Made by a program: the position numbers and the translations under genes
Virus record (IMG/VR): IMGVR_UViG_3300029092_000236
Length of the DNA stretch: 29,083 bases
Reading direction: 5' to 3' (one strand)
Source: a virus
Taxonomy: Duplodnaviria; Heunggongvirae; Uroviricota; Caudoviricetes
Notes under the pieces: model-generated
What the model was told of the DNA's origin: nothing
The model's input: only the letters and a program-made list of their open reading frames with translations
The model's database searches: none
Shown here: positions 8,614 to 14,971 of the stretch, piece by piece
Layout of the letters: the number at the start of each line of letters is the position of its first letter
Numbering within the stretch: position 1 is the first letter of the stretch

Positions 8614-9104
8614 TACTCCTCCTGCTGTAATTCCTCCTCATCATCCGCACCTGCTTCGGTCACCCGCAGGGCTATCTGATCGCGCAGATCATCAATAATG
8701 GACTGAACACGGCTCACAGCGGCAGGCTGCAGGCCGCAGTCACGTTCCAGAATATCCGGTAATGTCTCCAGCACCTGCACGACCGCTTTTGCCCAGATGG
8801 CAAACTCCCGTCTGACATCACTGGCCGGAATGAGTTGTGCCGTTTCCTGTTCGAACTTAAGACGCTCACGTTCAGACTGATACCAGGCTTTGCGTTCATG
8901 TGGATCCATTTCGCCCTCAGCAACCGGCGGTGGTAACCCCATAAATTCAGTCAGAATATCGGTCAACCGGTATAGCTTGAGTTTGTCATGTCCACCAGCG
9001 GGACGAATGTTTTTCAGTCTTGCCACGACAGTCTGGCGGTGCAGACCAGATAAAGCCGCCAGTTGATTAATATTCAGCACCAGGTTTTTCAACTCATGAT
9101 CCAT
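8613..9104 (-). CDS. Terminase small subunit (Nu1-like, N-terminal HTH)
   Basis: 163 aa immediately upstream of and coupled to TerL. N-terminal HTH-like NINQLAALSGLHRQTVVARL, acidic C-terminus. GGAGG RBS before ATG at 9102-9104. Confidence 0.7.
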   Translation of the reverse strand: MDHELKNLVLNINQLAALSGLHRQTVVARLKNIRPAGGHDKLKLYRLTDILTEFMGLPPPVAEGEMDPHERKAWYQSERERLKFEQETAQLIPASDVRREFAIWAKAVVQVLETLPDILERDCGLQPAAVSRVQSIIDDLRDQIALRVTEAGADDEEELQQEE

Positions 9105-10800: not shown

Positions 10801-11006
10801 TTCATTTTCACTTTCTTAAATCTAACGACAGATGGCTAACATTTAAGTATTGTGAAATATTATCAAATGTAATCATCATTGATTTACAAAAGATACATTT
10901 TGCCCCGAAAGGATTTCTGTCAGAAACATCAAAAGATGATGTTCTATACTGAGAACCATGGCAACACGGGCATCTAAAGTGAATATGGTTTGTAATATTT
11001 TCTACC

Positions 11007-11222
11007 TCAAAGTGCCACTACATGAACAGCTGCAGGGCCTTTAGGTCCGTTCTCAATACCAAATTCGACTTCCTGATTCTCAGTTAACGTTTTGAAATCG
11101 TTGCTCTGAATAGCTGAGAAATGCACAAACACATCTTTGCTACCATCTTTCGGCGTGATGAAACCAAAACCTTTTTCAGGGTTAAACCATTTCACTAAAC
11201 CAGTCATTTTGTTAAACATCAT
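11007..11222 (-). CDS. cspI: Cold-shock protein, CspA family (CspI-like)
   Basis: 70 aa with [66 protein letters not shown]; RNP1/RNP2 motifs present. Very close to recalled CspI. Long AT-rich 5' leader upstream. Confidence 0.85.
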
Positions 11223-11582
11223 TATTACCTTTTGAAGAAGTTAGCCCTTGGGCAGAATGGTCCGAAAAAAAATATCAGAGAGAAAAACCAACAAGGAAAT
11301 CTCAAGAGGTACAAATAATAAAATTATAACAATGACTGCTTCAGATAATTTTGTAACAAACCAGAACACCATTAACGCATGATTAACCAACCATAGCAAG
11401 GATTACTTTTGTAAAGAAAAACACACGAATGAAACAATAGCTTTATTTATTAATAAAACGTGTCATTCTGTCTAATGACCTTTTATCTTACCCTTAAGAT
11501 TTCAAGGATTTTGACTCATGGAAGAGTCCTTTTTATTTAAATTTCACATTCAGCGCTAAAAATAATCCGATTTAATATTAAT

Positions 11583-12610
<1,028 letters not shown>

Positions 12611-12723
12611 GGATATTTATCAGGATTTATCGGCTTCAAATCCCCGGATATGTTAAATCTTACCTCACCAGTGATGGGCACTGGCGGGAGGAGGATGTCA
12701 ATCTGATAAACACAGAGGTGACT

Positions 12724-12984
12724 ATGGATTACACAAATCTACCAAAACAAACTTTTGCTGATTTAATCGCACTCAGGCAAGCAGTCGTAGCTCTAATCAA
12801 CTTGTTGCCGGAGAAGGAAAAGGAATTAGTTAAAGCGCTTCTTAACAGAACTGCCGCCGATTTTTCATCATATCCACTGACAGATGACCTTGCGGACCTT
12901 CCTGAATTAATTGCAGCGTCCGCCATTAAGCTTACTGAAGAGATTTACCCTCCTCAAAAATCTTCACAAAATTCCTGCGAGTAA
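12724..12984 (+). CDS. Hypothetical acidic helical protein (86 aa), opposite strand inside the lysis cassette
   Basis: ATG at 12724 with AGAGGTG 6 nt upstream. Its 3' end overlaps the 3' end of the convergent 183-aa gene by about 50 nt. No family recognised. Confidence 0.4.
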   Translation: MDYTNLPKQTFADLIALRQAVVALINLLPEKEKELVKALLNRTAADFSSYPLTDDLADLPELIAASAIKLTEEIYPPQKSSQNSCE

Positions 12985-13483
12985 CTTCAATGCAATAATC
13001 GTAAAACGCCGCAAACTGCTCATCGCGGCGTTTTTTTTCATCTTCAGAAGGGATCAGCACCGACAATTTTTTATTCAGATCAGCGACGCTGCCCTCCAGT
13101 TTTTCAATGGGCGATTCAATATCATCTTTTTCTGACCGCAATGCCGTCGGTGGCGTCTTCAGAGAACCAGTAATTCTTCCCGGTAGCTTTCCTTTGTAGG
13201 TTATCCACACATTCTGCGCCTCTAAAATTATGGGGCGCTTTTCCGGCGACTGCTCATCCCCTACACATAACCCGGCAGCAACATCCAGGAATACCTGTCT
13301 GATTCTCATTCTGGCTGCTGCCTCATAAAACTCCAGCGCGGCACCTTCAACACGGTCCAGCGAGATGTCCAGGTCAAAAATTTCACCGTCAAAGCGTTTT
13401 TTGTCCCGTAAGGCTACAGTTACCGCCACTTTATTCTCAAAATTGCGGACTCCTTTCACAACCAGTTCATAGTCTTGTGTCAT
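12932..13483 (-). CDS. Hypothetical protein (183 aa) inserted between holin and endolysin
   Basis: ATG at 13481-13483 sits 4 nt after the holin stop, with a purine-rich stretch upstream. 549-nt ORF without transmembrane segments, charged C-terminal half. No family recognised. Confidence 0.5.
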   Translation of the reverse strand: MTQDYELVVKGVRNFENKVAVTVALRDKKRFDGEIFDLDISLDRVEGAALEFYEAAARMRIRQVFLDVAAGLCVGDEQSPEKRPIILEAQNVWITYKGKLPGRITGSLKTPPTALRSEKDDIESPIEKLEGSVADLNKKLSVLIPSEDEKKRRDEQFAAFYDYCIEVTRRNFVKIFEEGKSLQ

Positions 13484-13487
13484 TGGA

Positions 13488-13703
13488 TTACTCTCTTCTC
13501 GCAACCTTACGCCTGTCTTCTTTAATCTTGAAATAAAGGTTTGTCAGATACGTCAGCAGGCCAAAAACCAGACTACCCAGCACACCGATTGCAGCCCACT
13601 GTGACGGAGTTACTTTATCGAGTAACTGCAATGCCCAGAAACCAGCATTACCAGCCGATGTGCCATAGGCGATACCTGTTGTTAACTTATCCATTGATTT
13701 CAT
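13488..13703 (-). CDS. Class II holin / pinholin (phage 21 S-like), dual-start motif
   Basis: 71 aa [71 protein letters not shown]. Two transmembrane segments, MKSM dual start, close to recalled S21/EssD. Strong RBS GGGGTGAGG. Confidence 0.85.
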
Positions 13704-13921
13704 ATCCTCACCCCGATGTACACAGATGGTGCAATATGTTTGAAAAGATCGGAGTCTATGGGTTAGTTTTTATAGCAAACGTTGTTCTCAACGGCGCTAA
13801 AAAACAGACACATTAAAAATGTGGGTAATTATTTTAAAAGAAAATCATATATTAAATAATAATACGAGATATGTTTTCATATTTAGTGTACTGTATACGG
13901 CCATTTATACAGGAAAAGCCT

Positions 13922-14092
13922 ATGTCAGAACGTAAAGACTCAAAATCACGCCGTAATTATCTCGTTAAATGTTCCTGCCCAAACTGCACCCAAGAGTCAG
14001 AACACAGTTTTTCAAGAGTACAAAAAGGTGCCCTTTTGATCTGCCCTCATTGCAACAAAGTATTCCAGACAAATCTTAAAGCTGTAGCTTGA
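13922..14092 (+). CDS. Small zinc-ribbon protein (56 aa; CxxC...CxxC)
   Basis: ATG at 13922 preceded by AGGAAAAG. Product MSERKDSKSRRNYLVKCSCPNCTQESEHSFSRVQKGALLICPHCNKVF... with four Cys in two CxxC pairs. Own terminator downstream. Confidence 0.5.
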   Translation: MSERKDSKSRRNYLVKCSCPNCTQESEHSFSRVQKGALLICPHCNKVFQTNLKAVA

Positions 14093-14176: not shown

Positions 14177-14455
14177 TATTGTGGTACTTTTTGTGGGAGT
14201 CATTCACTTACGCACTTTGTTTTGCTATGCCAGCAGTTAGCTTCTGCTGTAAAACTATTCATGCAGCAAACCTGCACTTCACCACAATGGTTAGCATACT
14301 TTTCCTGATTAAGTTATTGCCAAATATGCTGGCCATTGTTTCATGTATTGGACCTCCTTACTATTTATTAAAGAGATCCAATATTCACCACTCTGTCTGT
14401 ATCTCCACTCAGGCATCAGCCTTCTTCGTTATCGTATACAGACAAACTATGAATT

Positions 14456-14671
14456 TTAATCAGTAATTATGACATTTGCTGCTGCAGGACCTTTAGCACC
14501 ACTCTCTACAGAGAAGGTAACCTTTTGACCTTCAAACAAGGTTCGAAAATTATCATTCTGAATCGCAGAAAAATGCACAAACACATCTTTACTACCATCA
14601 ACAGGAGAAATAAAGCCAAAACCTTTATCAGCGTTAAACCATTTTACTAAACCAGTCATTTTATTTGACAT
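14456..14671 (-). CDS. cspB: Cold-shock protein, CspA family (CspB-like)
   Basis: 71 aa [71 protein letters not shown], close to recalled CspB. Confidence 0.85.
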
Positions 14672-14971
14672 TCTACATTCCTTAACTTGAGCCTTTCGGC
14701 ATAAATGGCTTGTATAACAGAAACGACTTCGTACTTAATTGGAGAGACTCAAAGAAGGAATAAGTGAATAACACCTGAAATGAGAACTGCTTTAGTAAAC
14801 TACTTCGTATATCGTCTGTTCTTCAAACCGACGCAATCATTAACGCATAGTTGAACATATGAAGCAATGTTTATTTTAGACATCCAGCCATCTTCAACCC
14901 CATCAAAAAACTATAGCTTTCTTCAGGAACGTGTGTATAGTGCGCCCAGTTATCAGTATTAAGGAATTTTT

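What the first reader, a model, noticed from the sequence alone, without database searches (positions are those of the whole stretch)
12724..13483. About 0.9 kb insertion splitting the pinholin/SAR-endolysin pair, carrying two convergent unknown genes
In phage 21 and DLP12/Qin-type cassettes the holin gene is followed directly by the endolysin gene. Here the holin stop (13488) and endolysin start (12610) are separated by 878 bp. That gap holds a 183-aa gene (12932-13483) starting 4 nt after the holin stop on the same strand, and an 86-aa acidic helical gene on the opposite strand (12724-12984) with its own RBS. Their 3' ends overlap by about 50 nt, an arrangement that allows antisense interference. 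I recognise neither protein. Sitting inside the late operon, they would be expressed with lysis, or in the lysogen from the opposite-strand promoter. Candidate roles are lysis-timing control, superinfection exclusion, or a toxin/immunity-type defence pair.
Basis: partly seen in the sequence, partly recalled or inferred. Interest (0 to 1): 0.75.

Follow-up and report, generated by a model that had tools for sequence, protein, structure and literature searches.

The report
YdfR gene plus opposite-strand prophage moron
The gap between the holin and endolysin genes holds ydfR, a usual resident of this slot that is found in most E. coli genomes, plus a small self-contained opposite-strand gene of unknown function that replaced the end of a longer ydfR; this is ordinary prophage mosaicism, not a new system.

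Summary
The coordinates are right: an 877-nt gap between essQ and rrrQ holds a 183-aa minus-strand ORF and an 86-aa plus-strand ORF whose 3' ends overlap by 53 nt.

The interpretation needs correcting.
- The 183-aa protein is a YdfR/DUF1327 family member (Pfam E 1.6e-41). K-12 Qin itself reads essQ-ydfR-rrrQ. ydfR-like DNA occurs in 4349 of 5426 complete E. coli genomes and in many lambdoid and Stx phages.
- What is extra is about 376 bp (12617-12992) that replaced the 3' part of a longer, 296-aa type ydfR.
- This segment carries the 86-aa gene (phrog_2572). The gene has a Shine-Dalgarno sequence and is under purifying selection (dN/dS about 0.3 against about 40-50% identical homologues). It ends in a conserved hairpin terminator with one compensatory change. 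A conserved upstream block holds only a weak promoter candidate.
- The same gene lies antisense to the late operon in other contexts, for example after Rz in Salmonella prophages. It is always paired with a ydfR-tail-like partner ORF.

It behaves as a moron. Its protein is a small acidic predicted three-helix bundle with no informative sequence or fold match. A 2026 paper reports that the N-terminal 72 residues of K-12 YdfR bind RNase E. No toxin/immunity or defence signature was found. Interest is low to moderate.

The parts
13488..13703 (-). essQ, a class II (phage 21 S-type) holin of 71 aa
   Evidence: Pfam PF04971 E 7.3e-34. Annotated essQ in CFT073, which is 100% identical here.
12932..13483 (-). 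ydfR-family gene, 183 aa plus stop. N-terminal domain aa 1-72 = 13268-13483; conserved middle aa 73-112 = 13148-13267; helical tail aa 113-183 = 12935-13147.
   Evidence: PF07041 DUF1327 at 140.8 bits over aa 1-112. phrog_2091 matches 183/183 positions. 82% identical to K-12 YdfR over aa 1-73. The tail has pN/pS of 0.44 against the 296-aa form. AF2 gives three strands plus a helix for the N-domain (pLDDT 66-85) and a low-confidence helical tail.
12724..12984 (+). 86-aa opposite-strand gene (phrog_2572; WP_001306174.1). Acidic, pI 4.6, predicted three-helix bundle.
   Evidence: PGAP CDS in CFT073. phrog_2572 E 1.2e-53. dN/dS of 0.30-0.35 against homologues in L013 and L016. Replacements among E. 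coli alleles are conservative only in this frame. AF2 pLDDT is 71.6.
12714..12721 (+). Shine-Dalgarno-like AGAGGTGA, 2 nt before the ATG of the 86-aa gene
   Evidence: Read from the sequence. Homologues carry AAGGA 6-7 nt before their start codon.
12609..12654 (+). Conserved upstream block ATGGATATTTATCAGGATTTATCGG (12609-12633) with a weak promoter candidate: TTTATC (12626-12631), 17-nt spacer, TATGTT (12649-12654). The block overlaps the rrrQ translation start region on the other strand.
   Evidence: The block is nearly invariant in 9 loci from three lineages. The two hexamers and their spacing are kept while the spacer sequence varies. The match is only 7 of 12, and it is the only candidate shared by all lineages. 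The standard promoter scan did not report it. Function is inferred.
13003..13038 (+). Terminator-like hairpin (AAAACGCCGC, 12-nt loop, GCGGCGTTTT) followed by four more T. It lies inside the ydfR tail coding sequence, where it encodes KKRRDEQFAAF.
   Evidence: Fold of the 71-nt stretch 12980-13050 that contains the hairpin: -15.9 kcal/mol, z -2.6 on the + strand; -22.7 kcal/mol, z -3.8 on the - strand. The 8-bp core is kept in 7 loci with one G:C to A:U compensatory pair. The 5' arm is a 15-nt in-frame insertion relative to the 296-aa ydfR form.
12617..12992 (.). Segment with no counterpart in the long (296-aa) ydfR arrangement: the actual replacement that carries the 86-aa gene
   Evidence: blastn of the window against L024: homology runs 13715-12993 at 87% and resumes at 12616. 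GC is about 41.5% here against 48-55% in the flanks.
12077..12610 (-). rrrQ lysozyme, 177 aa, with a hydrophobic SAR-like N-terminus
   Evidence: PF00959 E 2.6e-24. Annotated rrrQ. The N-terminus reads [17 protein letters not shown] and the sequence [16 protein letters not shown] fits an E-8-D-5-T motif.

Best explanation
The window is a CFT073-type Qin-like lambdoid prophage. Its lysis cassette reads holin, ydfR, endolysin, like K-12 Qin and many lambdoid and Stx phages.

Shown. The 183-aa gene is a YdfR/DUF1327 late gene. A replacement of about 376 bp (12617-12992) removed the distal part of a longer ydfR. It installed a small opposite-strand transcription unit: a conserved upstream block, a Shine-Dalgarno sequence, an 86-aa ORF and a hairpin terminator. 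The hairpin lies inside the retained ydfR tail. The plus-strand ORF simply runs to its first stop, 53 nt into the end of ydfR, so the overlap is a by-product of this layout.

Inferred. The unit is a moron. It would be transcribed from its own weak sigma-70-type promoter while the late operon is silent in the lysogen, and overrun by Q-antiterminated late transcription during lytic growth. Its product is a small acidic cytoplasmic helical protein that most likely acts by binding another protein of the host or of an incoming phage; the target is unknown.

YdfR itself would be made with the lysis genes. By homology to K-12 YdfR, 82% identical over the published interaction region, it most likely binds the catalytic N-terminal half of RNase E and possibly RNA. 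That would make it a modulator of RNA decay late in infection, not a lysis effector.
For: Identity and family. ydfR sits between S and R in K-12 Qin, PhiR5_1 and PhiR12_1, Stx2 phage 86 and the 296-aa form. ydfR-like DNA is in 4349 of 5426 E. coli genomes and 106 phage records.

Breakpoints.

The 86-aa gene is real. dN/dS is 0.30-0.35 with dS above 1. It is the only open frame and has conservative replacements. It is phrog_2572, and the distant homologue P0139 hits the same family at 3.5e-27.

It is autonomous. The hairpin is kept with one covariation. The upstream block and SD are conserved. GC dips over the segment. The same unit lies antisense to late genes after Rz in Salmonella prophages and in two other contexts.

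The same arrangement is 99% identical in the sequenced phages 2H10 and PhiR63_1, and the module also occurs in PhiR5_1 and PhiR12_x, whose records give E. coli C or K-12 as host.

RNase E link: PMC13232886; 82% identity over aa 1-73.
Against: - No strong promoter. The shared candidate matches only 7 of 12 positions and the standard scan missed it.
- The U-tract after the hairpin is good only in the window-type lineage.
- No expression data were available.
- The 86-aa gene always travels with a ydfR-tail-like partner ORF. In Salmonella this partner has its own start codon abutting or overlapping the end of Rz. This could mean a functional pair and not a mere by-product.
- RNase E binding was shown only for the K-12 protein, and overexpression there had little effect on the transcriptome.
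Confidence: 0.6

Rival explanations
1. The helical tail of YdfR (a stand-alone 73-aa gene in Salmonella prophages) and the 86-aa protein form a functional two-gene module. It could be a toxin/immunity-like or exclusion pair, whose convergent overlap lets each transcript restrain the other.
For: In every context found, the 86-aa homologue is convergent with a minus-strand ORF and overlaps its end by 53-59 nt. The last 38 or so residues of that ORF are homologous across contexts. All three lineages keep that frame open. In Salmonella the partner has its own ATG that abuts or overlaps the end of Rz. Indels in the tail are in frame.
Against: There are no PADLOC, Pfam or NCBIfam hits. Neither protein has a toxin-like feature such as a small hydrophobic peptide or a nuclease fold. 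Across lineages the tail has dN/dS of 0.6-0.84, which is weak constraint. Part of its conserved motif is simply the hairpin read as codons. The tail is ancestral ydfR sequence, 87% identical at the DNA level across the aligned S-ydfR region to the 296-aa form, which has no partner gene.
Confidence: 0.12
2. The module tunes lysis. It separates rrrQ from ydfR, which are coupled by an ATGA overlap in K-12. It also makes a plus-strand RNA complementary to the late transcript just upstream of the endolysin start, dampening leaky or early SAR-endolysin expression.
For: In K-12 the ydfR stop overlaps the rrrQ start. Here the ydfR stop is 321 nt (12611-12931) upstream of the rrrQ start codon, and rrrQ has no obvious SD. 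The conserved upstream block of the 86-aa gene overlaps the rrrQ initiation region.
Against: The same module sits after Rz, far from any endolysin start, in Salmonella prophages. Selection acts on the protein sequence. The 296-aa form also has a 36-nt uncoupled gap before R.
Confidence: 0.12
3. The 86-aa ORF is a chance or shadow ORF, and the region is only a decayed spacer left by ydfR truncation.
For: Within E. coli there are too few substitutions to tell, and the wobble positions coincide with an antisense 65-aa ORF. The start codon is ATG to ACG in one strain and an IS3 element interrupts the ORF in another.
Against: dN/dS is about 0.3 over roughly 90-100 substitutions against distant homologues. 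The SD, start and length are conserved across three lineages. Only this frame is open. The gene is kept in plaque-forming phages.
Confidence: 0.03

Closest known systems
YdfR of the E. coli K-12 Qin prophage (P76160; Pfam DUF1327/PF07041)
   Same: Same position directly after the P21-type holin, with the start 4 nt after the holin stop. 82% identical over aa 1-73. That region was reported to bind the RNase E N-terminal half (PMC13232886).
   Different: K-12 YdfR is 103 aa, diverges after about aa 70, and its stop overlaps the rrrQ start. The window protein keeps the full DUF1327 region (aa 1-112) and adds a 71-aa helical tail. Other forms are 114-116, 176, 211, 268 and 296 aa.
Morons of lambdoid phages, for example lambda bor, which is opposite-strand and next to the lysis genes (own knowledge; a bor homologue is annotated in that orientation in Stx2 phage 86)
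   Same: A small gene antisense to the late operon, between genes that abut in relatives. It has its own terminator, a candidate promoter and lower GC.
   Different: No signal peptide or lipobox, so it is not an envelope protein like Bor. The promoter is unproven. The terminator is embedded in the coding sequence of the neighbouring gene.
Other opposite-strand ORFs in the same S-R slot: Stx2 phage 86 gp06 (phrog_1853) and a 95-aa ORF in strain ST866 (phrog_10490)
   Same: Same slot and orientation, between a ydfR-type gene and R.
   Different: No detectable sequence similarity to the 86-aa protein or to each other. These are independent acquisitions.
Convergent type I toxin-antitoxin loci that share a terminator, such as par/Fst of pAD1 (own knowledge)
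   Same: Convergent transcripts that overlap at a bidirectional terminator-like hairpin.
   Different: There is no small hydrophobic toxin. Both partners are hydrophilic proteins of 70-180 aa, and one of them is a ydfR fragment.

Membership tests
YdfR / DUF1327 (PF07041) | Match to the Pfam model above its gathering score | tested here: met
   140.8 bits against a cut-off of 25, aa 1-112 matching profile positions 1-92 of 93. phrog_2091 matches full length.
YdfR / DUF1327 (PF07041) | Located directly downstream of a P21-type holin and upstream of the lysozyme | tested here: met
   Window, K-12 Qin, PhiR5_1, Stx2-86, L024.
YdfR / DUF1327 (PF07041) | Binding of the RNase E N-terminal domain through aa 1-72, as reported for K-12 YdfR | not testable with these tools
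   Only sequence similarity is available: 82% over aa 1-73. The experimental claim is in PMC13232886.
Moron (autonomous gene inserted into a phage operon) | Lies between genes that are adjacent in related phages | tested here: met
   ydfR abuts rrrQ in K-12, and a 36-nt gap separates the 296-aa ydfR from R. The segment 12617-12992 is absent from both.
Moron (autonomous gene inserted into a phage operon) | Own terminator | tested here: met
   A 10-bp hairpin plus U-run lies 19 nt after the stop. It is conserved in 7 loci with one compensatory pair. The U-tract is weaker in other lineages.
Moron (autonomous gene inserted into a phage operon) | Own promoter | tested here: inconclusive
   The only candidate is TTTATC-17-TATGTT, a 7 of 12 match. 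It is conserved across lineages but was not called by the consensus scan.
Moron (autonomous gene inserted into a phage operon) | Expression from the repressed prophage | not testable with these tools
   No transcript data were at hand, and the literature search for the protein accessions found nothing.
Toxin-antitoxin or known anti-phage defence system | Either protein matches a known toxin, antitoxin or defence family | tested here: not met
   PADLOC gave 0 hits at E up to 1. NCBIfam gave 0. Pfam gave only DUF1327.
Toxin-antitoxin or known anti-phage defence system | The two genes are gained and lost together | tested here: not met
   ydfR is in 4349 genomes and the 86-aa module in 364. The reverse does hold: the 86-aa gene always has a ydfR-tail-like partner.
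Phage 21-type pinholin / SAR-endolysin cassette | S21-family holin, and a lysozyme with an N-terminal signal-anchor-release-like segment | tested here: met
   PF04971 E 7.3e-34 and PF00959 E 2.6e-24. The hydrophobic Ala/Leu-rich N-terminus was read. SAR behaviour itself is inferred.

The most novel reading that the evidence does not exclude
The 86-aa protein and the helical ydfR tail could be a conserved convergent two-gene module that moves between late-operon slots of enterobacterial lambdoid phages. It would have a function of its own, for example a lysogen-expressed exclusion factor or a regulator acting on late mRNA or RNase E. The terminator hairpin would be written into the partner's coding sequence.
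Probability: 0.15. Interest if true: 0.55.

Novelty: new member of a known kind. Interest (0 to 1): 0.27.

Why it matters
The main value is as a correction. The apparent insertion is the normal ydfR slot plus one more moron, so it should not be counted as a new lysis or defence system.

Two modest points remain useful.

(1) The S-R slot of P21-type cassettes is a recombination hot spot. ydfR there ranges from 103 to 296 aa, and three unrelated opposite-strand genes have landed in it.

(2) phrog_2572 is a real, selected and portable gene of unknown function, present in about 7% of complete E. coli genomes, including CFT073 and a B-derived strain. Its terminator was created by a 15-nt in-frame insertion in the neighbouring gene. 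If YdfR's reported RNase E binding holds, this slot may concern RNA metabolism late in infection and not lysis itself.

Tried and rejected
- **PDB by sequence.** The best biological hit was AcrIIC4 at E 0.21, which is not significant.
- **DUF1823 label.** The records PV340545 and PV340549 call the 86-aa protein DUF1823-containing. hmmscan did not reproduce this.
- **Rfam.** Nothing above threshold in the region; GcvB at E 0.84 is due to the terminator.
- **Large repeat proteins.** P0141 and P0144 from the exhaustive profile search are low-complexity repeat matches, and P0142 looks like a frame-shifted translation. All three were discarded.
- **dN/dS within E. coli.** Only 12-15 substitutions, and the wobble positions are shared with an antisense ORF, so it was underpowered. 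Distant homologues resolved it.
- **Conserved upstream block as a 15-codon uORF.** Rejected. There is no SD, and conservation is at the nucleotide level, not at the codon level.
- **PGAP pseudogene flag on ydfR ('missing C-terminus').** The 183-aa ORF is intact in the window and in L007, and 183-aa YdfR proteins 85-95% identical to it are annotated as intact elsewhere. The flag probably reflects comparison with longer YdfR forms (inference).
- **Literature.** Searches for the protein accessions, phrog id and DUF1327 found nothing functional.

Full report
**What is there.** The window is 100% identical to E. coli CFT073 over the query 12500-13800. It lies in a complete-looking lambdoid prophage that has an integrase, a Q-type antiterminator, csp genes, a lysis cassette, terminase, and head and tail genes.
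- holin 13488-13703 (-);
- a 183-aa ORF at 12932-13483 (-), starting 4 nt after the holin stop;
- an 86-aa ORF at 12724-12984 (+), behind AGAGGTGA;
- lysozyme 12077-12610 (-).

The gap is 877 nt and the 3' overlap is 53 nt.

**The 183-aa gene is YdfR.** It scores 140.8 bits against Pfam DUF1327 over aa 1-112 and matches phrog_2091 over its whole length. PGAP names it a YdfR family protein.

The premise that Qin-type cassettes run holin directly into endolysin is wrong. K-12 Qin reads essQ-ydfR-rrrQ, with the ydfR stop overlapping the rrrQ start. DLP12 does lack ydfR.

ydfR-like DNA is in 4349 of 5426 complete E. coli genomes, at 8614 places, and in 106 phage records, including H-19B, BP-4795, mEp460 and many Stx phages.

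The family has a conserved N-terminal part and variable tails. Lengths of 103, 114-116, 176, 183, 211, 268 and 296 aa occur.

PGAP flags the CFT073 copy as a pseudogene 'missing C-terminus'. The ORF is nevertheless intact, 183-aa YdfR proteins 85-95% identical to it are annotated as whole elsewhere, and its tail is under moderate constraint (pN/pS 0.44 against the 296-aa form).

**What is actually extra.**
- Against K-12, homology runs through essQ and the first 70 or so codons of ydfR. It resumes 10 nt before the rrrQ ATG.
- Against the 296-aa arrangement (S, then ydfR-296, then a 36-nt gap, then R), homology at 87% runs from S to window position 12993. It resumes at 12616.

So about 376 bp (12617-12992) replaced the last 445 bp of the longer arrangement. 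Within the retained ydfR tail, the window carries a 15-nt in-frame insertion that supplies the 5' arm of a hairpin.

**The 86-aa gene is real and autonomous.** It is annotated as WP_001306174.1 and belongs to phrog_2572. Close relatives are essentially confined to E. coli.

An exhaustive profile search and a second iteration found homologues about 40-50% identical: P0139, P0140, P0145, and P0146/P0147 from Salmonella. P0139 hits phrog_2572 at 3.5e-27. Against these, dN/dS is 0.30-0.35 with dS above 1.

Among E. coli alleles the plus frame is the only open one. Its replacements are conservative, with a mean BLOSUM score of +0.6 to +0.75 for the window allele against the other two (-0.29 between those two), and negative scores in the other five frames.

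Nineteen nt after the stop lies a 10-bp hairpin followed by a T-run. Its 8-bp core is kept in seven loci, with one G:C to A:U compensatory change.

Upstream, the block ATG(G/T)ATATTTATCAGGNTTTATC is nearly invariant in nine loci. It holds the only promoter-like candidate shared by all lineages, TTTATC-17-TAT(G/T)(T/G)T. The hexamers and spacing are conserved while the spacer varies. The match is weak, 7 of 12, and the standard scan did not call it. GC dips to about 41.5% over the segment.

**Contexts.** The gene always lies antisense to the late operon:
- between ydfR and R in E. coli prophages and in the phages 2H10, PhiR63_1, PhiR5_1 and PhiR12_x;
- after Rz and before the small terminase gene in Salmonella prophages;
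- in two further arrangements.

In all of them its 3' end overlaps, by 53-59 nt, the end of a minus-strand ORF. The last 38 or so residues of that ORF are homologous to the window's ydfR tail. In Salmonella this ORF is a stand-alone 73-aa gene whose ATG abuts or overlaps the end of Rz.

Part of the shared motif (KRRDE..AA) is the hairpin read as codons. Across lineages the tail has dN/dS of 0.6-0.84. I therefore read the partner mainly as ydfR sequence that travels with the moron because the terminator is embedded in it. A functional pairing is not excluded.

Two unrelated opposite-strand ORFs occupy the same slot in other phages. The slot is therefore a hot spot.

**Function.** AF2 gives the 86-aa protein a three-helix bundle (pLDDT 71.6). 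It is acidic, with pI 4.6, and has no signal peptide or convincing transmembrane segment. No fold or profile search was informative.

The one functional lead is PMC13232886. In that study K-12 YdfR, through aa 1-72, bound the RNase E N-terminal half in two-hybrid and co-purification assays and co-purified RNA, while overexpression changed few transcripts. The window protein is 82% identical over this region.

**Verdict.** This is ordinary lambdoid mosaicism: a routine ydfR plus an uncharacterised moron. There is no evidence for a toxin/immunity or defence pair. A lysis-timing role is possible but not favoured.

Noticed in passing
window 14393-14832 (-) and 11000-11366 (-): Two matches to the Rfam cspA thermoregulator (160 and 103 bits, above the gathering score) lie upstream of the prophage cspB- and cspI-like genes that flank the lysis cassette. 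The cassette is therefore embedded among cold-shock genes, as in K-12 Qin.
   Followed up: no
window 12607-12612 versus L002 6055-6058: In K-12 Qin the ydfR stop overlaps the rrrQ start (ATGA), which suggests translational coupling. In the window the ydfR stop is 321 nt (12611-12931) upstream of the rrrQ start, and rrrQ has no evident Shine-Dalgarno sequence.
   Followed up: partly
L005 2680-2994 (+); L012 997-1284 (+): Two other, mutually unrelated opposite-strand ORFs (phrog_1853 and phrog_10490) sit in the same ydfR-R slot, in Stx2 phage 86 and in strain ST866. This points to a moron hot spot.
   Followed up: partly
window 13003-13038; L024 about 2925-2976: The 5' arm of the terminator hairpin corresponds to a 15-nt in-frame insertion (codons KRRDE) in ydfR relative to the 296-aa form. 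A terminator for one gene has been written into the coding sequence of its convergent neighbour.
   Followed up: yes
L011 (CFSAN029787) and L009 (2013C-3277): There is decay of the 86-aa gene in some strains. In one, the start codon is ATG to ACG and the ydfR tail has a 21-nt deletion. In another, an IS3-family element truncates the ORF.
   Followed up: partly
window 13871-14092 (+): A YnfU-type zinc-ribbon ORF (Pfam YnfU E 4.7e-31) is open for 73 aa here, but is annotated as 56 aa in CFT073 and K-12.
   Followed up: no
window 11633-11929 (-), inside rzpQ 11583-12080: An embedded out-of-frame ORF with a lipobox-like LTSC is the Rz1/rzoQ-type o-spanin. It is annotated in K-12 but not in the CFT073 RefSeq table shown.
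   Followed up: no
window 13148-13267 (YdfR aa 73-112): This is the most conserved stretch of the family (PEKRPIILEAQNVWITYKGKLPGRITGSLKTPP), yet AF2 models it as disordered with pLDDT about 30. K-12 YdfR lacks it.
   Followed up: no
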